From Rhodospirillales bacterium (lineage in GTDB: Bacteria; Pseudomonadota; Alphaproteobacteria; MPNO01; UBA2964), in NCBI GenBank assembly GCA_038120295.1, contig JAYOLL010000003.1, positions 137,132 through 201,131 of the forward strand: a stretch of 64,000 bases of DNA, in the 5' to 3' direction. The position numbers were made by a program, and so were the translations under genes. Below the pieces are notes generated by a model, which worked only from the letters and a program-made list of their open reading frames with translations, made no database searches and was not told where the DNA came from. Shown here piece by piece: positions 17,521 through 63,012 of this stretch. The stretch's first letter is position 1; each line of letters opens with the position of its first letter.

Positions 17521-19440
17521 CTATTCGGCTGGATGAGGCCAGCTTTCTTCCGGCACCCATTTTCCGCTGTCTTTTCTGAGCAACCAGGAGCGGCTTGCCT
17601 TCAGGTCGACCCCCAGGGCCTGTTTCAGAGACGGGGTGAAATCATATAGCCAGATATGGCTTATCTGTTTGTCTTCTATGCGTTTTCGAACGGATTCCGG
17701 AGTCAGGCGGTTCCATGATGTGACCCTGTCAACCAGGGCTGTCACCGGCAACAGGTGATATCGCATGATGATCAGGTACTGGCCATTATCGCTGGCGTCG
17801 ACGAGCAGGATCCGGTCGCCGGCAGCTAGCCGGTCGGCAAGCGCGCGACCGGTTTCCCAAGCATACTGGTAACGCGGATGCGTATCGAAGCGCAGTTTTT
17901 TCGCCATACCGACCGGAAGGGCGATAACCAGCACGATGGCTGCCATATGTGCCCATGACGGCATTCTGCCGGGCAGGTAGCGCCGCCAGAGCAGGGCTGC
18001 GCTGAATGCCGCGAAAAGGAGGCAAACGCCCCCCAGATGCGTGTTGTAGCGCCAGTAAGATGCGGCATACAGGGCTTCGCCGCTGCCGAACGCTGTCACA
18101 TAGGCGAACAGAAGGAAAAAATTGTAGGACAGGAACATCGTCCCGGTGATGATGGCGAGGCGGCTGAAAGCCCCCCTGTATCGCCAAATCGCGAGGACAC
18201 CGGCCACGACCGCTATTGTCATGACGCCGAAATATCCCCCTTTCTTACTGGCGATCAGCGCCATACGCGCGATGATCTGCGGGATTTCCCGGATAAGCCA
18301 CTCGGAATAGGGCAGGAACTCAAAATCGCCTTCAGTAATGTGAAAAGCGACATGCAGCTTCCAGAGAAGGTAAACGATCAAGGGAAACAGGAATATCCTG
18401 GCGGCGAGCCGCGCCGTCGCTTTCCACCGGATGGCAGGATCTCGTAACACCAGGATGCTAAGCGCAAGTCCGAGCGCCATCAGAAAAACGATATTGACCT
18501 GTTTGAGCCCGATCATGGCCATCGACACCAGCCCAGCCTGCCAGGCAAGAGACCGGGCCTCGTCTTCGTTGTCGATCGCGAGCGCGTTTGTTGACAGCCA
18601 GACCAGGGCCGCTGCGAATCCGACGAGGACGCCGGTTGGGGCATCCGCATAGGCGCTAAAGACCAGTCGTGTAACGTATGTCGGGTTAAGGATGGTGACC
18701 GCCAGCGCTCCCAGCGCGCACACCGCCCAGCCGGCCCGAGTTGCGTTAAGCGTATCGTTTGTCGGACCTGCGCCGTCCGATGTCCGGGACGCGGTAGAGA
18801 CAATAATCCGCGATATCAGAAGCCCGAATGAGAGAAGCAGCAGGACCGAAAAGATCGTCGACGCATTGATGACGAAAGCGCCGGTCACTCTGCTCGCCAT
18901 AAAAGCTACAAGTGAGTTGCCGTAGGGGTAGGCTGGAAAGACTGCGAAGCTCCTGGGCAGGTCCGAGCGTGGGACCGAATCGTGCTCGAAGAGATATCTG
19001 GCATGGGCCAGCCAGTGCGAAAACTCATCCCACTGTGTAGGAAGCATGGACGCGGCGATAGCAATGAGCGGGAGGGCGACAAGTGCGATACGGACAACTC
19101 CCGGATCCGTCAGGCGCCCGTTGCGTCGAAAGACGACGGTAGCGCCCGCGCATGCCCCCAACCCTAGCGCCGCCGCAACAGCAGTGAAGTGGGTTACGCC
19201 AATCGATGCGGCCAGTGTGAAGGCTGCTACAGCGATACCGAGACCAAAAACCAGGTCGCCCTCCGGGCGTCGTGTCGGGCCGCCTGCAAAAGCGCCGAGG
19301 CCGATCAGGAGGACGGCAACAGCCAGAACCGCTGCCAGCCCGCCGAGTTCGTTGGAGGATGGGATCAGAAGGTTTAGATGGGACAGCAACGTGAAGTCGT
19401 CCTGATGGCTGGGTGTGGCGGTCGCCCTGTACGGCAACAA
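17521..19440 (-). CDS. GT-C fold membrane glycosyltransferase (ArnT/PMT-like) with C-terminal soluble domain
   Basis: 639 aa; about 12 predicted TM segments over the first 470 aa then a hydrophilic C-terminal domain of about 170 aa; first extracytoplasmic loop carries WDEFSHWLAHARY (DE…ARY, reminiscent of the ArnT/PMT DExRYAE catalytic loop). Confidence 0.55.
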   Translation of the reverse strand: MLPYRATATPSHQDDFTLLSHLNLLIPSSNELGGLAAVLAVAVLLIGLGAFAGGPTRRPEGDLVFGLGIAVAAFTLAASIGVTHFTAVAAALGLGACAGATVVFRRNGRLTDPGVVRIALVALPLIAIAASMLPTQWDEFSHWLAHARYLFEHDSVPRSDLPRSFAVFPAYPYGNSLVAFMASRVTGAFVINASTIFSVLLLLSFGLLISRIIVSTASRTSDGAGPTNDTLNATRAGWAVCALGALAVTILNPTYVTRLVFSAYADAPTGVLVGFAAALVWLSTNALAIDNEDEARSLAWQAGLVSMAMIGLKQVNIVFLMALGLALSILVLRDPAIRWKATARLAARIFLFPLIVYLLWKLHVAFHITEGDFEFLPYSEWLIREIPQIIARMALIASKKGGYFGVMTIAVVAGVLAIWRYRGAFSRLAIITGTMFLSYNFFLLFAYVTAFGSGEALYAASYWRYNTHLGGVCLLFAAFSAALLWRRYLPGRMPSWAHMAAIVLVIALPVGMAKKLRFDTHPRYQYAWETGRALADRLAAGDRILLVDASDNGQYLIIMRYHLLPVTALVDRVTSWNRLTPESVRKRIEDKQISHIWLYDFTPSLKQALGVDLKASRSWLLRKDSGKWVPEESWPHPAE

Positions 19441-22404: not shown

Positions 22405-22827
22405 ATGGCCGTTGAACGAACGTTATCGATTATCAAGCCCGACGCCACGCGCCGTAACCTGACGGGCAAGATTGTAGCGATGCTGGAAGACGCTGGCCTG
22501 CGCGTTGTGGCGCAGAAAAGGATCCAGATGACTCGCGAAATGGCGGAAGGGTTCTATGCCGTTCACGCAGAACGCGCTTTCTTCGGCGATCTCTGCGAAT
22601 TCATGTGCTCCGGCCCGGTCGTGGTTCAGGTGCTCGAAGGGGAAAACGCCGTCGCGAAAAACCGTGAGGTGATGGGCGCGACAAACCCGGCGAATGCCGA
22701 TGAAGGGACCATCCGCGCCGAGTTCGCCGAATCGATCGAAGCCAACTCGGTCCATGGTTCGGATTCAGCGGAGAACGCCGCGATCGAAATAGCGTTTTTC
22801 TTTGCACAGGTTGAAATAGTCGGCTGA
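22405..22827 (+). CDS. ndk: nucleoside-diphosphate kinase
   Basis: 140 aa from ATG at 22405 (AGAGAG RBS); [14 protein letters not shown], active-site NxxHGSD (NSVHGSD). The ORF track's 22327 start is an unsupported upstream extension. Confidence 0.9.
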
Positions 22828-22853
22828 TTACGGTCGCCGGCTTCCAATATGCG

Positions 22854-22886
22854 AAAGGGCGGGTTTAAAACCCGCCCTTTATTTAT
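22854..22886 (+). terminator. rho-independent terminator downstream of ndk (bidirectional with the purN-side small ORF)
   Basis: AAAGGGCGGG-TTTAAAA-CCCGCCCTTT hairpin followed by TATTTAT. Confidence 0.7.
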
Positions 22887-22901
22887 CCGCACAACTTCGT
22901 T

Positions 22902-50039: not shown

Positions 50040-50075
50040 TGGTAACTCCTGAAAACTGTAGTGGTGGGGGACGGA

Positions 50076-50747
50076 TTACTCCGCCGCTTGAGTGGTCGTT
50101 TCGCCGGCAGAGGTCGGGTTGTACCGCTCCTCGACCGTCATCTTCTTCATCGAGAACACGTTATCGACGGTCGTGTAATCCATATAGCCGAGCCGCGCGA
50201 TGATCTTCATCTTGAGCGTGTCGACCAGCCCGTCCTCGGTGATGAAGTCGTCGTCTATGTGGACAGCGACGACTTTGCCGAACACGACATGGTGTTCCGC
50301 CTCGGGCGCATTGCTCGGCAAGGTATAGGTGCCGTGATAAAGGCATTCGAACTGGGCTGGCGACTCCGCTACTCTCACCGGTTTGACCAGCTTCGACGGC
50401 GCCGCAGTGAGCCCCACTTCCGCGAGCTCGTCGACCTCGGAATCGAGGATCCAGCTTGTGTCGGACATCTGCTGTCGCGTATCCCAGGTCGCCAGATTAT
50501 AGACGAATTCTCCGGTTTCCTCGGCGTTCCGAACCGTATCCTTCTTGCTGCCGTCTTCGTTGCAGCCGCCCGAAAACATCACGAAGGGCGGGTTGTAGGA
50601 CAGGCCGTTGAAATAGCTGTATGGAGAGAGATTGCCGATTCCATCCTTGCTGATGGTGCTGATCCAGCCTATGGGGCGCGGTACGGTGAGCGCCTTGATC
50701 GGGTTGTAGGGAAGACCGTGATCGTTCTTGTCGGTTTCGAAATACAT
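50076..50747 (-). CDS. flavin reductase family protein
   Basis: 223 aa; flavin-reductase-like split-barrel N-terminus (PRPIGWISTIS…). Confidence 0.65.
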   Translation of the reverse strand: MYFETDKNDHGLPYNPIKALTVPRPIGWISTISKDGIGNLSPYSYFNGLSYNPPFVMFSGGCNEDGSKKDTVRNAEETGEFVYNLATWDTRQQMSDTSWILDSEVDELAEVGLTAAPSKLVKPVRVAESPAQFECLYHGTYTLPSNAPEAEHHVVFGKVVAVHIDDDFITEDGLVDTLKMKIIARLGYMDYTTVDNVFSMKKMTVEERYNPTSAGETTTQAAE

Positions 50748-50833
50748 GTGAATCAGTTTCCTGAATGCGCCGTCAATCAGGGACGCCTATTAGCACAGCC
50801 GGGGGGGATGAGTCCCGCTTTGAAGGTCGGGGG

Positions 50834-51472
50834 TCAAACGCCGACCGCCCGATAGTGGATGAGGCGGATCGGCGTGAGCTTGAAAGCATTGACCTTGTTC
50901 CTGTCCTGGGCGCAGTTCGAAATGGCCACCAGCAGATCCATCTCTGCCGTGAAGTCTGCGTAATCGCCCGGCCTCGATTTCGGAAAATCGATCTCGTACC
51001 GCCCGTCCGCGCCGACCGGTACGTTCATAAAGACATTGATAGGGTAGGGGACATCCTTCCATTCGAGGCCCCAGGGCTCCACCGCCATGGCGAAATTGTC
51101 CCGGCAGTTGGCTCCGCGCCCGTCGCCATAGCGGCGTTCGTTCATGTGGCTGGAGCAGGCGCCGGCAATCATGGCATGGGTGCCGCAGCTATCGGCCGTC
51201 ATGGTCATCATCAACCCGGCCTCGTCCGAATAGAGCCCGTAGCCGATCCCGGGATAAATCTGCCGGTTGAGGCCAAGGGTATTCGGGGATGACAGCTTTT
51301 CTTCGAGCCTGCCCAGATTGAAACAGGCGAGCCCCGCGACCTGCTGGCCCTCGATGTCGACGATGCGAACGACCTCGCCGCGTTTTACTTCAAGGGCCCT
51401 GTAGCCCGCCGGCGCTATGGTCTCTTCCAGTAATATGACACCGGAAATCGCGTCGTGTTCAGCCTGACCCAT
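50834..51472 (-). CDS. DUF1989 (urea carboxylase-associated-like) family protein
   Basis: 212 aa; pattern VKRGEVVRIVDIEGQQVAGLACFN…TADSCGTH typical of DUF1989. Confidence 0.5.
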   Translation of the reverse strand: MGQAEHDAISGVILLEETIAPAGYRALEVKRGEVVRIVDIEGQQVAGLACFNLGRLEEKLSSPNTLGLNRQIYPGIGYGLYSDEAGLMMTMTADSCGTHAMIAGACSSHMNERRYGDGRGANCRDNFAMAVEPWGLEWKDVPYPINVFMNVPVGADGRYEIDFPKSRPGDYADFTAEMDLLVAISNCAQDRNKVNAFKLTPIRLIHYRAVGV

Positions 51473-56743: not shown

Positions 56744-57463
56744 ATGATCGATCTTTATACTTGGGCCACGCCCAACGGCCACAAGGTCCACATCATGCTC
56801 GAGGAAACCGGGCTGGATTACACGGTGCATGGCATCAATATCCGCGCGGGAGACCAGTTCGAAGACGATTTTCTCAGAATCAGTCCCAACAACCGGATTC
56901 CGGCCATCGTCGACCGCGACGGACCGGGGGGAAAGGAACTGTCGCTGTTTGAGACCGGCGCGATCCTGATTTATCTGGGCGACAAGACAGGGCAGTTCAT
57001 GCCCGGTCTGGAGGACGACGCGCATGGGCGCTACAATGTAATGCAGTGGCTGATGTGGCAGATGGGCGGCGTCGGCCCGATGTTCGGTCAGGCCAGTCAT
57101 TTCACGGGATATGCGCGCGAACGCCACAGCGACGCGGAACTTCAGTACGGCATTGATCGCTATACCAACGAGGCCAACCGGCTTTACGGCGTGATGGATC
57201 GCCGGCTTGCGGAAGCCGAGTATCTTGCTGGCGACTATTCGATCGCGGACATGGCGGTCTGGCCGTGGTGCCGGGAACCGTCGCGACGCGGCGTCGATCC
57301 GTCCGATTATCCCAACGTGCAGCGCTGGTTCGATGCGATCGAAGCGCGGCCCGCGGTGCAACGCGCGGTAAAGATCCTCGCCGAGGAATCGGTGCGGCCC
57401 GTCAAACATGACGACAGGGCCTGGTCGATCATGTTCGGCGACCGGCAGTTTCAGCGTAACTAG
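56744..57463 (+). CDS. glutathione S-transferase family protein (YghU/YfcG-like, Nu class)
   Basis: 239 aa; thioredoxin-like N-domain (LYTWATPNGHKV), C-terminal GST helical domain. Confidence 0.75.
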   Translation: MIDLYTWATPNGHKVHIMLEETGLDYTVHGINIRAGDQFEDDFLRISPNNRIPAIVDRDGPGGKELSLFETGAILIYLGDKTGQFMPGLEDDAHGRYNVMQWLMWQMGGVGPMFGQASHFTGYARERHSDAELQYGIDRYTNEANRLYGVMDRRLAEAEYLAGDYSIADMAVWPWCREPSRRGVDPSDYPNVQRWFDAIEARPAVQRAVKILAEESVRPVKHDDRAWSIMFGDRQFQRN

Positions 57464-57493
57464 TCAGCAAGCAAAAGGGAGAACGAGAAAGCA

Positions 57494-58090
57494 ATGTTCG
57501 TGAGAAAACTTAAATCAGTCCTGCCGGCGATTGCCGTCGCCGTCGGGCTGACGTTGTCGGGGGCGTCGCTTGCGGCGGGTCCGAACGATACGCTCGACAA
57601 GGGGCCGAAAGTCGGGGCCACGATCCCGCACATGCTCAAGACGGTCGATCACCAGAACCAGCACCAGGATTTCAAGGCTCTGGCCCGGAAGAAGGGCCTG
57701 ATTGTCCTTTTTTCCCGCTCGGTCGGGTGGTGACCGCACTGCAAGATCCAGGCGGTCGCCTGGAACGACAAGTACGATGAATTCAAGGCGCTGGGTTATA
57801 ACGTCACCATCGTGACGCATGACAAGACGGACGTTCTGGCGAGTTTTGTCCAGAACGAGAACATCAGGTTCAGGATGCTGTCCGATGCGAAGACGGAAAT
57901 CGTTCCGGCCTTCGGCCTCGTAAACGAACGTTTCGAGAAAGGATCGGCCTGGTATGGAACGGCCCATCCGATGATCTTTGTGGTCAATCCGAAAGGCGTG
58001 ATCACGCATCGCTTCTCCGGCACCAGCGTATCGCAAAGACCTGCGGTCAATCTGGTGCTTGGGACTCTTAAGAAGGAAGCAGGCGGCTGA
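57494..58090 (+). CDS. periplasmic thioredoxin-fold redoxin (TlpA/AhpC-TSA-like) with in-frame UGA at the first redox-motif position; candidate selenoprotein (W-U-P-H-C)
   Basis: Track ORFs 57494..57733 and 57812..58090 are in the same frame. The only stop between them is TGA 57731-57733, exactly where the first Cys of WCxxC is expected (…LIVLFSRSVGW[TGA]PHCKIQAVAWND…). The continuous read-through product is 198 aa with a signal peptide. A hairpin with a GGUC apical loop lies 20 nt downstream and a terminator follows at 58116. Confidence 0.55.
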
Positions 58091-58115
58091 GAACGCTGGA
58101 CTTTTCGTACCACGA

Positions 58116-60364: not shown

Positions 60365-61360
60365 TCAGGCAGTGATCGGAAGATCGCCCTTCTTGGCGTC
60401 GATCAGGATGATGGCGAGGCGGCACGTCTCTGTCCCGCGGTTGATCCAGCTATGGTTCGTTCCCTGCTGGACCATGATGTCTCCCGGGTTCAGGTGCACT
60501 TCGGCGCCGTCGTCCAGTTCCATGTCAATCTCGCCCGAAACGCAGAAGATTATGTCCAGCGTGTCCGTGCGGTGCATCCGGCCCGGCATTCCCGCCGGGT
60601 AATCGTTGATGGTGAAGCGGTTCCCGCGCGGCGGCGGCTGGGTGCCGAGGCGGCGCGCACCGTAATCTTCATCTGTCCACATCTCGCAGGGGGATTCGTC
60701 CATCGACCAGATCAGGGTCGAGACCATGCCGCGTCCCGACCATTTGTGATTGGATGCGACGCCATCCATCCCGACCACTGCTTTGCCGTTCGCGTCATGC
60801 GTGGTGACGATGCGGCGGATCGGGGGATTGGGCGGCTCGCCCGTGCCGTCATGCGGCTTGCTCGGCGGCGGGGCGGTTTCGCCCGGACCGGGTTCGTTCT
60901 TGGCGTCCATCAGAACGAAACCGAGCCGACAGGGCTCGGTGCCGCGATTGACCCAGCTATGGTTGGTGCCCTGCTGCACCATGACGTCGCCAGCCTTCAT
61001 ATGGACCGAAGCGCCGTCATCCATGTCCATATCGATTTCGCCCGACAGGCAGATGACGTAATCCAGCGTGTCGGTGCGGTGCATGTTTCCAGGGCAACCC
61101 GGCAGGAACTCGATCACACAGATGCGCGCGCCGTTGGGTTCCGGTTCGCGGTTGACGATACGCTGGCCGAAATCCTCGTCCGACCAGATTTCCACCGGCA
61201 TCTCGTCGGCGTACCAGACCAGGGTCGAAACGCTCTGGTTATGCTTTGGCCATTTATGGTTGGTCGCGGGACCGTCCATCGTGACGACGGCCTTCATGTT
61301 CTCGTCGTGGCCCGTGACGATGCGCCGGATCGGCGGATCGGGCAGCAGGGGATCAGCCAT
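60365..61360 (-). CDS. bicupin protein (two tandem cupin domains)
   Basis: 331 aa from ATG at 61360 (AAGGAG RBS); two homologous halves (PPIRRIVTGHDENMKAVV…GEIDMDMDDGASVHMKAGDVMVQQGTNHSWVNRGTEPCRL and PPIRRIVTTHDANGKAVV…GEIDMELDDGAEVHLNPGDIMVQQGTNHSWINRGTETCRL). The track's 109-aa Arg-rich N-terminal extension is rejected. Confidence 0.7.
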   Translation of the reverse strand: MADPLLPDPPIRRIVTGHDENMKAVVTMDGPATNHKWPKHNQSVSTLVWYADEMPVEIWSDEDFGQRIVNREPEPNGARICVIEFLPGCPGNMHRTDTLDYVICLSGEIDMDMDDGASVHMKAGDVMVQQGTNHSWVNRGTEPCRLGFVLMDAKNEPGPGETAPPPSKPHDGTGEPPNPPIRRIVTTHDANGKAVVGMDGVASNHKWSGRGMVSTLIWSMDESPCEMWTDEDYGARRLGTQPPPRGNRFTINDYPAGMPGRMHRTDTLDIIFCVSGEIDMELDDGAEVHLNPGDIMVQQGTNHSWINRGTETCRLAIILIDAKKGDLPITA

Positions 61361-61380
61361 TCTCAATTCTCCTTTCGGGA

Positions 61381-61935
61381 TCAGTCGGCGAGCGGCTTCG
61401 GGCCGCCGTCGGGAATATCGACATCGAACGACACCAGCACGACCGCGACCATGGTGTAGAACCCGATGATGGTGACGAGGTCGAGTACGGTCTGTTCGCC
61501 CAGAACCTCGACCGCCTTTGCGTAGGTCGTATCCGACAGCGACCGGTCGTGCGACAGCTCCTTCGCCACCCGGTAGACGATTTTCTCGTCGTCCTTTTCG
61601 ATGACGGGTTCCCGGCGCTCGCGGATGGCGTCGGCTATTGCGGGATCGAGTCCGACCTTTTCGACATATTTTTCGTGTGCGTACCATTCGTACTGCGCCG
61701 TGTAGGTCCGTGCGATGACGAGGACGGCGAGTTCGACGAGACGCTGCGGCACCGATGTTTCGTGCCGAAGGTGGCTGCCGAAAAGATTCGCCTTGTCAGC
61801 AAGCTCGGGCGTCCTGAGCCATAGCGCGAACGGCCCCTTGGCCGCGCCGCCGCCGCGCGTACCGGCGATCTCGTCATTGATGCGTTTCTGTTCCGCCGTC
61901 ATCTCGTCGAGCGGAATGGGGTCGATGCGGGCCAT
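61381..61935 (-). CDS. carboxymuconolactone decarboxylase (AhpD-like/CMD) family protein
   Basis: 184 aa; CMD fold pattern (…VELAVLVIARTYTAQYEWYAH…). Confidence 0.65.
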   Translation of the reverse strand: MARIDPIPLDEMTAEQKRINDEIAGTRGGGAAKGPFALWLRTPELADKANLFGSHLRHETSVPQRLVELAVLVIARTYTAQYEWYAHEKYVEKVGLDPAIADAIRERREPVIEKDDEKIVYRVAKELSHDRSLSDTTYAKAVEVLGEQTVLDLVTIIGFYTMVAVVLVSFDVDIPDGGPKPLAD

Positions 61936-62046
61936 GCGGCGCCTCCCTGAAATAGTTGTTGCGCAAAGTCTGCCGCAGAGGCGGAAGGCGGTCTACCTTG
62001 CCGCCGGTTTTTGCTATAATCCCCGAAACGAATAAGGAGATGGGCG

Positions 62047-62913
62047 ATGGCGACTGTACTCGAAGAGATGACTCCGAAACCGCTTTCCGATGCGCTCGGC
62101 GCGGAGATCAGCGGCATTGACGTGCGTGGGCTGGATGATTCGGAATTCGACCGGCTGCGTGACATTTTTCACGACAATCTGGTCCTGGTGGTGAAGGACC
62201 AGAAGCTCTCGCCCGCGGAACAGACCGACTTCGCTGCTCGTTTCGGCGATATCCAGTATCACATCTCGCCAGAATATCTGATGGACGGACAGCCGGAGGT
62301 GATGATCCTTTCCAACGAGATTGAGAATGGAAAGAATGTGGGCATTCCCGATGCCGGCAGCGACCCGCATTCGGACCATTCCTATGTCGACGTGCCGACC
62401 GCCTACACGATGCTGTACGCGCTCAAGGTCCCGAAGGACGGCGGCGATACCGAGTGGACCAACATGATAGCCGCCTACGAGGCGCTGTCGGACGAGATGA
62501 AGGAGCGGCTCGACGGGCTGATCGGCATCCACAGCTTCAACCGGCTGCGCAATCCGCGCATGACGGTCGGTGACCGCCACGGCGACGGGCAGGATTATTA
62601 CAAGCGGTCGCCGCCCGATGCGTTTCACCCGATCGTCCGCACTCACCCGGCGACGGGCAGGAAAGCGCTGTATATCTCGCCGCGCTTCACCATCGGCATC
62701 AGGGATATGGACGATGCCGAGGCGCAGCCTTTGCTGGACGAGCTGTTCGCACATATCGCGCAGCGGCAATTCATCTATCGCCACCGCTGGACGGTCGGAG
62801 ACCTCCTGATGTGGGACAACCGCACCACGTTGCATCTCGCCCTCGGCGGTGTGCCGAAAGGGCAGGCGCGGCGTATGCACCGCGTGACGGTGCAGGGGGA
62901 AGTGCCGGTTTAG
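62047..62913 (+). CDS. TauD/TfdA family Fe(II)/2-oxoglutarate-dependent dioxygenase
   Basis: 288 aa; HxD…H facial triad context (HSDHSY…, …HLALGG), R for 2-OG binding near the C-terminus. Confidence 0.75.
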   Translation: MATVLEEMTPKPLSDALGAEISGIDVRGLDDSEFDRLRDIFHDNLVLVVKDQKLSPAEQTDFAARFGDIQYHISPEYLMDGQPEVMILSNEIENGKNVGIPDAGSDPHSDHSYVDVPTAYTMLYALKVPKDGGDTEWTNMIAAYEALSDEMKERLDGLIGIHSFNRLRNPRMTVGDRHGDGQDYYKRSPPDAFHPIVRTHPATGRKALYISPRFTIGIRDMDDAEAQPLLDELFAHIAQRQFIYRHRWTVGDLLMWDNRTTLHLALGGVPKGQARRMHRVTVQGEVPV

Positions 62914-62932
62914 GATTTTTGGTGTCGGCACT

Positions 62933-63012
62933 GGCCCTCTCCCCCATCCGGCCACCGACTAGGTTACTGGCCCATGAATCCATAGGGGGTGGCCGGGTGG
63001 GTGAGAGGGCCG
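62933..63012. repeat. 80-bp imperfect palindromic (REP/MITE-like) element in the intergenic region
   Basis: GGCCCTCTCCCCCATCCGGCCACC … GGTGGCCGGGTGGGTGAGAGGGCC, arms about 24 nt with 2 mismatches and a loop of about 32 nt; a second nested hairpin AGTGCCGG…CGGCACT (62901-62932) spans the tauD-like stop. Confidence 0.55.

What the first reader, a model, noticed from the sequence alone, without database searches (positions are those of the whole stretch)
57747..57764. bSECIS-like hairpin with GGUC apical loop 20 nt downstream of the in-frame UGA
Immediately 3' of the UGA the mRNA can form UCCAGGC-GGUC-GCCUGGA (7-bp stem, 4-nt loop GGUC, loop at 57754-57757). From memory, the E. coli fdhF SECIS has a GGUC apical loop whose G and U are the SelB contacts, with about 18 nt between UGA and the loop; here the spacing is 20 nt. 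No bulged U is evident, so the match is suggestive rather than canonical.
Basis: partly seen in the sequence, partly recalled or inferred. Interest (0 to 1): 0.6.

Follow-up and report, generated by a model that had tools for sequence, protein, structure and literature searches.

The report
Selenocysteine insertion hairpin in redoxin gene
The hairpin is real and is almost certainly the RNA signal that tells the ribosome to read the UGA 20 bases upstream as selenocysteine in an exported peroxiredoxin-like redox protein; this is an ordinary new example of a well-known mechanism and protein family.

Summary
The hairpin UCCAGGC-GGUC-GCCUGGA is at 57747-57764, and its loop starts 20 nt after the in-frame UGA (57731-57733). 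That UGA lies in a 198-codon AhpC/TSA redoxin gene (57494-58090). It replaces the first Cys of a W-C-P-x-C redox motif, giving W-U-P-H-C. Twenty-five UGA-containing homologues, which are 39-83% identical in protein, keep the 6-bp core CCAGGC/GCCUGG and the GGUC loop. All 138 pair cells are paired. There are two G-C to A-U double changes at synonymous sites and three G-U wobbles. Third-codon-position entropy falls to 0.12 bit across the hairpin, against 1.24 bit elsewhere. Three distant Cys homologues lack the hairpin. One Cys form nested inside the Sec clade keeps it, probably as a leftover signal. All four structural criteria of the published bacterial SECIS consensus are met. The bulged U and 11-nt spacer of the E. 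coli fdhF type are absent. In naked RNA a rival hairpin that buries the UGA (57729-57760) is more stable, at -20.5 against -12.8 kcal/mol. Its upper part is not conserved, and its 5' arm would be inside a ribosome that is decoding the UGA. Verdict: a genuine bSECIS of a known Prx-like UxxC selenoprotein family. It is a new member of a known kind and of modest interest. SelB binding and the organism's Sec machinery could not be tested.

The parts
57494..58090 (+). Selenoprotein gene: 198 codons plus a UGA stop at 58088-58090. It encodes an AhpC/TSA (Prx-like) thiol:disulfide oxidoreductase with redox motif W-U-P-H-C (Sec80, Cys83). The N-terminus looks like a signal peptide.
   Evidence: Translation. 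Pfam AhpC-TSA 6e-22 and Redoxin 1e-13 with U replaced by C. The frame is conserved on both sides of the UGA in 25 homologous genes. The signal peptide (MFVRKLKSVLPAIAVAVGLTLSGASLAA) is inferred from the sequence only.
57731..57733 (+). In-frame UGA read as selenocysteine (residue 80). It aligns with the first Cys of W-C-P-x-C in Cys homologues and is followed by C, giving UGA-C.
   Evidence: Alignment A1. TGA is at the same codon in all 25 Sec-form genes, and TGC or TGT is there in L006, L032, L033 and L034.
57740..57742 (+). UGC codon of the resolving Cys83 in the UxxC motif.
   Evidence: Invariant UGC in the 21 Sec-form sequences analysed.
57748..57763 (+). Conserved SECIS core: the 6-bp helix CCAGGC/GCCUGG closing the GGUC tetraloop at 57754-57757. 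This is the proposed SelB-binding minihelix. It is encoded by the third base of the Ile codon plus the codons Q-A-V-A-W.
   Evidence: 138 of 138 pair cells are paired in 23 distinct sequences. Pair 57751-57760 is GC:20, AU:2, GU:1, and pair 57752-57759 is GC:21, GU:2. dG is -10.1 kcal/mol. The loop is invariant.
57747..57764 (+). The extra outer pair U57747-A57764 exists in the window but is not conserved.
   Evidence: U-A is present in 11 of 19 distinct sequences and unpaired in 8.
57729..57760 (+). Mutually exclusive alternative hairpin B: GGUGACCGC-A-CUG [CAAGAUC] CAG-GCGGUCGCC. It buries the UGA and the GGUC bases in a stem and is the MFE fold of the naked RNA in the window.
   Evidence: dG -20.5 kcal/mol with pair probability 0.95. 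The lower 7 bp are invariant, but every base there is already fixed by the W-U-P codons or by hairpin A. Pair 57736-57753 is broken in 17 of 23 sequences, 57737-57752 in 4 of 23 and 57739-57751 in 2 of 23, with no compensatory change.
57737..57766 (+). Zone of suppressed synonymous variation (codons +2 to +11 after the UGA), marking RNA-level selection.
   Evidence: Mean third-position entropy is 0.37 bit over codons +1..+11 and 0.12 bit over +5..+10, against 1.24 bit in the rest of the gene. Synonymous codon identity is 94% against 56%.

Best explanation
The gene at 57494-58090 encodes an exported Prx-like thiol:disulfide oxidoreductase whose attacking redox residue is selenocysteine, encoded by UGA 57731-57733. 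The hairpin 57748-57763 (6-bp core with a GGUC loop; 7 bp in this window) is its bacterial SECIS element. The proposed mechanism is inferred by analogy with E. coli. When the ribosome places the UGA in its A site, the 13-14 nt after the UGA lie in the mRNA channel. The hairpin then sits at the channel entrance and presents the loop bases G57755 and U57756, the counterparts of G23 and U24 in fdhF. SelB-GTP-Sec-tRNA(Sec) binds the hairpin and delivers Sec to the UGA in competition with RF2. In untranslated mRNA the 3' half of the element can instead pair with the UGG-UGA-CC codons (hairpin B). Ribosome advance melts that pairing and lets the SECIS hairpin form. Shown here: the sequence, the fold energetics, the conservation, the covariation and the Sec/Cys alignment. 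Inferred: SelB binding and actual Sec insertion.
For: (1) The UGA aligns with the first Cys of the W-C-P-x-C redox site of an AhpC/TSA domain, and the frame continues for 118 codons. (2) Twenty-five homologous genes, 39-83% identical in protein and found in Rhodospirillales, Rhodospirillaceae, Paracoccaceae and other MAGs and metagenomes, all carry TGA at this codon, with CCAGGCGGUCGCCUGG or a pairing-preserving variant at the same offset. (3) All 138 core pair cells are paired. Two sequences (L035 and L042, only 52% identical to each other) changed G-C to A-U through two synonymous substitutions (CAG to CAA and GCC to GCU). Three others show G-U wobbles. Only 9 of 500 shuffles reach the observed covariation. 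(4) Third-position entropy is 0.12 bit in the hairpin codons against 1.24 bit elsewhere. The base at 57748 stays C although the codon changes among Ile, Asn, Arg, Ala, Ser, His and Val. (5) Sec forms all read Q-A-V-A/V-W here, whereas Cys forms vary freely. The distant Cys genes L032, L033 and L034 have no hairpin (0 to -0.6 kcal/mol). (6) All four structural bSECIS criteria quoted in PMC13188914 are met: a 4-nt loop, a 6-7 bp stem, a G followed by G/U at the loop start, 20-nt spacing, and dG of -7.5 or lower. (7) The loop is identical to the E. coli fdhF GGUC loop. (8) With the bases up to 12 nt past the UGA (UGA+12) made unavailable, the hairpin's probability rises from 0.04 to 0.96.
Against: In the window's free RNA the hairpin is not the MFE structure; hairpin B is 7.7 kcal/mol more stable, and RNAalifold also picks a B-like consensus. 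The covariation rests on few events: one variable pair has double changes, and the shuffle control is not a probability. The E. coli hallmarks are missing, namely the bulged U17 and the 11-nt spacer, and the G-U dinucleotide lies 2 nt further from the UGA than in fdhF or in the predicted S. meliloti fdoG element. No selA, selB, selC or selD and no tRNA-Sec were seen in the 64-kb window or in any fetched flank, so Sec capability of the organism is assumed. Relaxed bSECIS criteria alone pass 6 of 105 open-frame TGAs in this window, so the structural match by itself is weak evidence.
Confidence: 0.85

Rival explanations
1. The functional recoding structure is hairpin B (57729-57760), an extended stem-loop with the UGA inside the stem. 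On this view hairpin A is a by-product.
For: B is the MFE fold in the window (-20.5 kcal/mol, probability 0.95). RNAalifold chooses a B-like consensus. Its lower 7 bp are paired in all 23 distinct sequences. The E. coli fdhF element also pairs its UGA in a lower stem (fold of the fdhF sequence).
Against: Every base of B's lower stem is already fixed by the W-U-P codons or by hairpin A, so its invariance says nothing independent. B's upper part decays: 57736-57753 is broken in 17 of 23 sequences, and there are no compensatory changes. The L035 and L042 changes that preserve A break a B pair. B's apical loop (CAAGAUC) varies in sequence among homologues, has no G in its first two positions and starts only 8 nt after the UGA, so it fails the bSECIS consensus. 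Its 5' arm would be inside the ribosome when the UGA is decoded. In several homologues A is already favoured in free RNA (L009, L019, L021, L036 and L039, probability 0.94 or higher).
Confidence: 0.07
2. The hairpin is a coding by-product. On this view Q-A-V-A-W is conserved for protein reasons, GC-rich codon bias makes it look like a hairpin, and the UGA is a genuine stop or a pseudogene lesion.
For: CAG, GCG, GUC and GCC are preferred codons in a 60% GC genome. Public gene callers treat the UGA as a stop and annotate only the 92-aa C-terminal piece. One Cys form (L006) has the same 18 nt.
Against: Cys-form relatives do not conserve Q-A-V-A-W. Four-fold degenerate Ala and Val third positions are invariant in 21 Sec forms, while other conserved Ala, Gly, Pro and Leu codons in the same genes show 1-1.8 bit. 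The double synonymous changes keep pairing. TGA is conserved at one codon across 25 genes with an intact downstream frame, and the domain is split in mid-fold if it is read as a stop. L006 is 75% identical to the Sec form L023, so it is nested in the Sec clade and is best read as a recent Sec-to-Cys conversion.
Confidence: 0.03
3. The hairpin stimulates UGA read-through, or pauses the ribosome, without SelB. This would be a structure-stimulated stop-codon suppression that inserts Trp or Cys.
For: The UGA-C context is known to terminate poorly (established knowledge for E. coli RF2). Stable downstream hairpins can promote read-through. No Sec machinery was seen in the available sequence.
Against: The invariant GGUC loop, identical to the SelB-contacted loop of fdhF, is not needed for a purely steric effect. 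The UGA replaces a catalytic Cys, which is the classic Sec/Cys pair. The family (Prx-like, PF00578, UxxC) is an established selenoprotein family (PMC13188914, PMC2398784).
Confidence: 0.05

Closest known systems
Bacterial SECIS consensus (bSECISearch model of Zhang and Gladyshev, as summarised in PMC13188914)
   Same: It lies immediately 3' of an in-frame UGA inside the coding region. [quoted passage not shown]
   Different: Nothing structural differs. Function (SelB binding and Sec insertion) is untested.
E. coli fdhF SECIS (read from NC_000913; features from PMC8659212 and PMC10945757)
   Same: The GGUC apical loop is identical. The G-U dinucleotide that SelB contacts is exposed in the loop. 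UGA is followed by C. The spacing is similar (18 nt in fdhF, 20 nt here).
   Different: There is no bulged U (U17 is essential in E. coli). The helix is a perfect 6-bp G+C-rich stem (-10.1 kcal/mol, against -4.2 for the 17-nt fdhF minihelix). The spacer to the helix is 13-14 nt instead of 11 nt, and G-U sits at positions 25-26 instead of 23-24. The UGA is not in a lower stem continuous with the SelB-binding helix but in a mutually exclusive alternative hairpin.
Predicted SECIS of Sinorhizobium meliloti pSymA fdoG (Alphaproteobacteria; L045, TGA at 1965)
   Same: It comes from the same bacterial class. It is a hairpin just 3' of UGA-C with G-U at the start of the apical loop and a spacing of 19 nt, against 20 nt here.
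   Different: The fdoG element is predicted to keep the E. coli geometry: a bulged U17, a 3-nt GUU loop with G23 and U24, and a long lower stem. The element here has no bulge and no lower stem. The fdoG fold is only an MFE prediction.
Prx-like thiol:disulfide oxidoreductase selenoproteins (PF00578, UxxC; 'Prx-like 1' of the GOS survey, PMC2398784; Table 1 of PMC13188914)
   Same: It has an AhpC/TSA domain, a UxxC redox motif aligned with CxxC homologues, and an origin in environmental or marine-type bacteria.
   Different: This is a distinct subgroup (W-U-P-x-C-x-x-Q-A-V-A-W, with a signal peptide) found here mostly in Alphaproteobacteria MAGs. No NCBIfam model reaches its cut-off. Public annotation holds only truncated fragments. 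I could not compare it directly with the published reference sequences.

Membership tests
Bacterial SECIS (bSECIS consensus model) | It lies directly downstream of an in-frame UGA that aligns with Cys in homologues | tested here: met
   The UGA at 57731 aligns with the first Cys of W-C-P-x-C.
Bacterial SECIS (bSECIS consensus model) | Apical loop of 3-9 nt on an upper stem of 4-16 bp | tested here: met
   A 4-nt loop at 57754-57757. The stem is 6 bp conserved (7 bp in the window).
Bacterial SECIS (bSECIS consensus model) | G in one of the first two loop positions, usually followed by G or U | tested here: met
   The loop is GGUC, invariant in 25 of 25 Sec-form sequences.
Bacterial SECIS (bSECIS consensus model) | 16-37 nt between UGA and the apical loop | tested here: met
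   20 nt (57734-57753), identical in all homologues, whose alignment is gapless.
Bacterial SECIS (bSECIS consensus model) | Hairpin free energy of -7.5 kcal/mol or lower | tested here: met
   -10.1 for the 6-bp core and -12.0 to -12.8 for the 7-bp form. The weakest variants, at -7.4 and -7.7, are borderline.
Bacterial SECIS (bSECIS consensus model) | It is the favoured local fold | tested here: inconclusive
   In the window's free RNA the probability is 0.04 because of hairpin B, and it is 0.96 once the ribosome-covered bases are masked. Among homologues the free-RNA probability ranges from 0 to 1.
Bacterial SECIS (bSECIS consensus model) | It binds SelB and directs Sec insertion | not testable with these tools
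   This needs biochemistry or genetics.
Bacterial SECIS (bSECIS consensus model) | The host genome encodes selA, selB, selC and selD | not testable with these tools
   There is no tRNA in the window, no sel domains in the 20 large ORFs scanned, and no tRNA-Sec in 16 related loci. The rest of the genome is not available.
E. coli fdhF-type SECIS | GGUC-type loop exposing G23 and U24 | tested here: met
   The loop sequence is identical, but G-U lies at +25/+26 from the U of UGA rather than at +23/+24.
E. coli fdhF-type SECIS | Bulged U (U17) in the 5' strand of the upper stem | tested here: not met
   The 6-bp helix is perfect with no bulge in any of the 25 sequences.
E. coli fdhF-type SECIS | The minihelix starts 11 nt after the UGA | tested here: not met
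   13 nt to the window's 7-bp stem and 14 nt to the conserved core.
Prx-like thiol:disulfide oxidoreductase selenoprotein (PF00578, UxxC) | AhpC/TSA (PF00578) domain | tested here: met
   E = 6.1e-22 and 78.3 bits against a cut-off of 26.
Prx-like thiol:disulfide oxidoreductase selenoprotein (PF00578, UxxC) | UxxC motif at the position of the CxxC redox centre | tested here: met
   W-U-P-H-C against W-C-P-x-C in the Cys homologues P0002, P0009, P0012 and others.
Prx-like thiol:disulfide oxidoreductase selenoprotein (PF00578, UxxC) | Direct homology to the published family representatives (for example WP_010940744.1) | not tested
   The reference sequence could not be fetched with these tools.

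The most novel reading that the evidence does not exclude
The element may be a two-state switch rather than a static SECIS. In untranslated mRNA the SelB-binding loop GGUC and the 3' arm are sequestered by pairing with the UGG-UGA-CC codons themselves (hairpin B). The SECIS then becomes available to SelB only when an approaching ribosome unwinds the 5' arm. This would couple SelB recruitment to translation and hide both the UGA and the SelB site on idle mRNA. Because a GGUC loop is complementary to (U)GA-CC, such masking would be built into any Sec-Pro context.
Probability: 0.15. Interest if true: 0.5.

Novelty: new member of a known kind. Interest (0 to 1): 0.3.

Why it matters
It fixes the annotation of this gene. 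Public gene calls keep only a 92-residue C-terminal fragment named 'peroxiredoxin', whereas the real product is a 198-residue exported selenoprotein. It shows that a clade found here mainly in Alphaproteobacteria MAGs uses Sec in a periplasmic-type redoxin; a 2006 genome survey found only FdhA as a selenoprotein in that class (PMC1794560). It also gives a clean natural data set for what a non-enterobacterial SelB may require: an invariant GGUC loop on a bulge-less 6-bp helix, 20 nt from the UGA. The same clade contains a Sec-to-Cys convert that still carries the hairpin. None of this changes the understanding of the mechanism.

Tried and rejected
- **Rfam.** Neither the gathering scan of the whole window nor a permissive scan of 57400-58100 found a SECIS family; the only hit was a chance sRNA match at E = 8.8.
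- **Homologue searches.** The word-indexed protein search with the full protein found one fragment only. Two alignments were too diverse for locus scanning.
- **Sec machinery.** I looked for sel genes, tRNA-Sec and other selenoprotein genes in the window and in the flanks of related loci and found none.
- **Window scan with relaxed bSECIS criteria.** The scan flagged 5 other TGAs (22825, 26553, 49381 on the + strand; 61901, 3414 on the - strand). I set them aside: 22825 is followed by a strong G+C-rich hairpin and looks like a genuine gene end, 26553 and 61901 are out of frame with the nearest long listed ORF on their strand, and 49381 and 3414 have no 250-aa-or-longer ORF listed over them on their own strand.
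- **Lower stem.** I looked for a lower stem flanking hairpin A, as in the 40-nt fdhF element. None was predicted, and the flanks are not conserved after codon +11.
- **The 7-bp stem.** I considered it as the conserved unit and rejected that, because the outer pair is not conserved.
- **Liu et al. 1998.** The paper on the minimal SECIS could not be read, so secondary sources were used.

Full report
**1. The observation**

Window 57747-57764 reads TCCAGGC-GGTC-GCCTGGA, a perfect 7-bp inverted repeat around a 4-nt loop at 57754-57757. It lies inside a 198-codon frame (57494-58090, + strand) that has a single internal TGA at 57731-57733. Exactly 20 nt separate that TGA from the loop. The isolated hairpin has -12.0 kcal/mol, and the 6-bp core has -10.1.

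In the 128 kb of both strands there are 12 perfect 7-bp tetraloop hairpins, against about 14 expected from a first-order Markov model, so such hairpins are not rare in themselves. This one is the only hairpin of 6 bp or more with a GGUC loop, where 0.33 (6-bp stem) or 0.03 (7-bp stem) are expected.

**2. The gene**

With U replaced by C, the protein matches Pfam AhpC-TSA (6e-22) and Redoxin (1e-13). The UGA sits at the first position of the thioredoxin-fold redox motif, giving ...SRSVGW-U-PHC-KIQAVAW... The N-terminus (MFVRKLKSVLPAIAVAVGLTLSGASLAA) looks like a signal peptide; this is inferred from the sequence alone.

An exhaustive HMMER search with the C-terminal 118 residues found 577 relatives. 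They fall into two groups:
- Full-length proteins with W-C-P-x-C.
- Many fragments of 85-115 residues that start just after the motif. These are what gene callers leave when they stop at a Sec-UGA.

The window's own C-terminal 92-residue ORF is in the public collection as such a fragment, and one source names it 'peroxiredoxin'. No NCBIfam model reaches its cut-off.

The neighbouring genes are ordinary alphaproteobacterial chromosome genes: gatA and gatB homologues (Amidase and GatB domains), a GST, a 2-hydroxyacid dehydrogenase and an aminotransferase. Further away lie lptD, topA, rnr and aspS. No tRNA or sel gene is in the window.

**3. Relatives with DNA**

Scans of genome and metagenome contigs, keyed on a C-terminal peptide far from the hairpin (WYGx[AI][HL]P...), and look-ups of fragment proteins gave two groups:
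- 25 distinct genes with TGA at the same codon. Over the compared segment (codons -40 to +62 around the UGA) they are 39-83% identical in protein to the window's gene; one extra locus, L008, is 99% identical over the whole protein. They come from Rhodospirillales, Rhodospirillaceae, Paracoccaceae and unclassified Alphaproteobacteria MAGs and from several metagenomes.
- Four Cys forms: L006, L032, L033 and L034.

**4. Conservation and covariation**

In the 25 Sec forms the stretch is gapless. The 6-bp core 57748-57753/57758-57763 pairs in 138 of 138 cells:

| Pair | Types observed | Variant sequences |
|---|---|---|
| G57751-C57760 | GC:20, AU:2, GU:1 | A-U in L035 and L042, G-U in L040 |
| G57752-C57759 | GC:21, GU:2 | L025 and L043a |

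- The two A-U cases arise from two synonymous changes each (CAG to CAA and GCC to GCU).
- L035 and L042 are only 52% identical to each other, no closer than either is to G-C-bearing genes, so the events are probably independent.
- Only 9 of 500 shuffles reach the observed covariation. This control is indicative and is not a probability.
- The outer pair U57747-A57764 is kept in only 11 of 19 distinct sequences, so the conserved unit is 6 bp.

Third-position entropy is 0.12 bit over codons +5..+10 and 1.24 bit in the rest of the gene. Synonymous codon identity is 94% against 56%. Base 57748 remains C although its codon changes among Ile, Asn, Arg, Ala, Ser, His and Val. The Pro third base 57736 varies freely among G, C and U.

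Sec forms all read Q-A-V-A/V-W, while Cys forms vary at these residues. This suggests the RNA constraint drives the peptide conservation. The three distant Cys genes have no hairpin, at 0 to -0.6 kcal/mol. The fourth, L006 (an Acidobacteriota MAG), keeps the identical 18 nt. It is 75% identical to the Sec form L023 and so nested in the Sec clade, and it is best read as a recent Sec-to-Cys conversion with a leftover SECIS.

**5. The competing fold**

It gives hairpin B at 57729-57760, GGUGACCGC-A-CUG[CAAGAUC]CAG-GCGGUCGCC, at -20.5 kcal/mol and probability 0.95. RNAalifold also prefers a B-like consensus.

Several points reduce the weight of this result:
- B's lower 7 bp consist only of bases already fixed by the W-U-P codons or by hairpin A, so their invariance is not independent evidence.
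- Its upper part decays. Pair 57736-57753 is broken in 17 of 23 sequences, 57737-57752 in 4 and 57739-57751 in 2, and these last two are exactly the sequences whose changes preserve hairpin A. There is no compensatory change.
- In six homologues A is already dominant in free RNA.
- When the bases up to 12 nt past the UGA (UGA+12) are made unavailable, as they would be in a ribosome with the UGA in its A site, A rises to probability 0.96 in the window and to 0.85 or more in 10 of the 15 Sec forms tested.

I therefore take A as the SelB-binding element. B is either incidental or a resting-state conformation. In part the complementarity comes for free, because a GGUC loop is complementary to GA-CC.

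**6. Comparison with known elements**

The published bSECIS consensus (PMC13188914, read) requires a 3-9 nt loop, a 4-16 bp stem, a G in the first two loop positions (mostly followed by G or U), 16-37 nt spacing, and dG of -7.5 or lower. All of these are met. These criteria alone are not specific: a relaxed scan passes 6 of 105 open-frame TGAs in this window. The comparative data carry the weight.

Against the E. coli fdhF type (PMC8659212), the loop is identical. The essential bulged U17 is absent, the spacer is 13-14 nt rather than 11 nt, and G-U lies 2 nt further from the UGA. The predicted SECIS of S. meliloti pSymA fdoG keeps the E. coli geometry, with a bulged U17 and a GUU loop at 19 nt. 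The element here is therefore a different, simpler variant within the same bacterial class.

The protein belongs to the long-known Prx-like UxxC selenoprotein group. 'Prx-like 1', PF00578, has 225 sequences in the GOS survey (PMC2398784), and the group appears in Table 1 of PMC13188914.

**7. Mechanism and verdict**

The likely mechanism, inferred by analogy, is as follows. The ribosome reaches UGA-C, and the hairpin at the mRNA entrance recruits SelB-GTP-Sec-tRNA(Sec) through the exposed G-U of the loop. Sec80 is inserted, and together with Cys83 it forms the selenenylsulfide redox centre of an exported thiol:disulfide oxidoreductase.

The sequence, energetics, conservation, covariation and Sec/Cys pairing are shown here. 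SelB binding, Sec insertion and the presence of sel genes are not.

This is a new member of a known kind and of modest interest (0.3). The most novel reading not excluded is a ribosome-triggered switch from B to A that masks the UGA and the SelB site on idle mRNA (probability about 0.15).

Noticed in passing
L006:1524-1580 (Acidobacteriota MAG JASFRZ010000461.1): This is a Cys-containing homologue (TGC, W-C-A-F-C) that still carries the identical CTCCAGGCGGTCGCCTGGAAT hairpin. It is 75% identical to the Sec form L023. It looks like a recent Sec-to-Cys conversion with a leftover SECIS, found in a different phylum from most Sec forms.
   Followed up: partly
L043:84 and L043:789; L044:106 and L044:789 (ENA ERZ23497164 scaffold; NCBI GCA_038106755.1): Two tandem paralogues of this redoxin, about 51% identical, each have their own UGA and SECIS hairpin. 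One has the G-U variant GUCUGG. The upstream part of the second copy in L044 appears frame-disrupted.
   Followed up: partly
L001:820-1164 (Logan SRR26909571, 1466-bp contig): This is a C-terminal relic of the gene that begins at the hairpin (GUCAGGCGGUCGCCUGGC, with a U-G wobble and a G-C outer pair). It has no UGA, no redox motif and no N-terminal half upstream. It is a truncated pseudogene, a rearrangement or a chimeric assembly.
   Followed up: no
L021:~591 (codon -33 relative to the UGA at 690): An extra in-frame TAG sits where relatives have Ser, Asp or Met (IPH*LAV). It is a sequencing error or an inactivated copy.
   Followed up: no
window 57812-58090 and public protein clusters P0157, P0166 and P0167: Public gene calls for this gene and its relatives contain only the 84-115 aa C-terminal fragment; one is named 'peroxiredoxin'. 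The selenoprotein is systematically mis-annotated as a truncated ORF.
   Followed up: yes
window 58088-58090: The gene's own terminator codon is also UGA, 119 codons after the Sec-UGA. The same codon therefore serves both meanings within one mRNA.
   Followed up: no
window 22825-22890 (+): A TGA is followed 35 nt later by a strong G+C-rich hairpin, AAAGGGCGGG-UUUAAAA-CCCGCCCUUU (-14.2 kcal/mol). It looks like an intrinsic terminator at a gene end. It passes relaxed bSECIS criteria as a false positive.
   Followed up: no
window 17521-19440 (-), 50061-50855 (+), 62014-62955 (-): These are large ORFs (639, 264 and 313 aa) with no Pfam match at E of 1e-5 or lower. Whether they are real genes was not examined.
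   Followed up: no
window 60365-61687 (-): This is a tandem double-cupin protein. The listed ORF has a roughly 110-residue Arg-rich N-terminal extension that looks non-coding, so the true start is probably further downstream.
   Followed up: no
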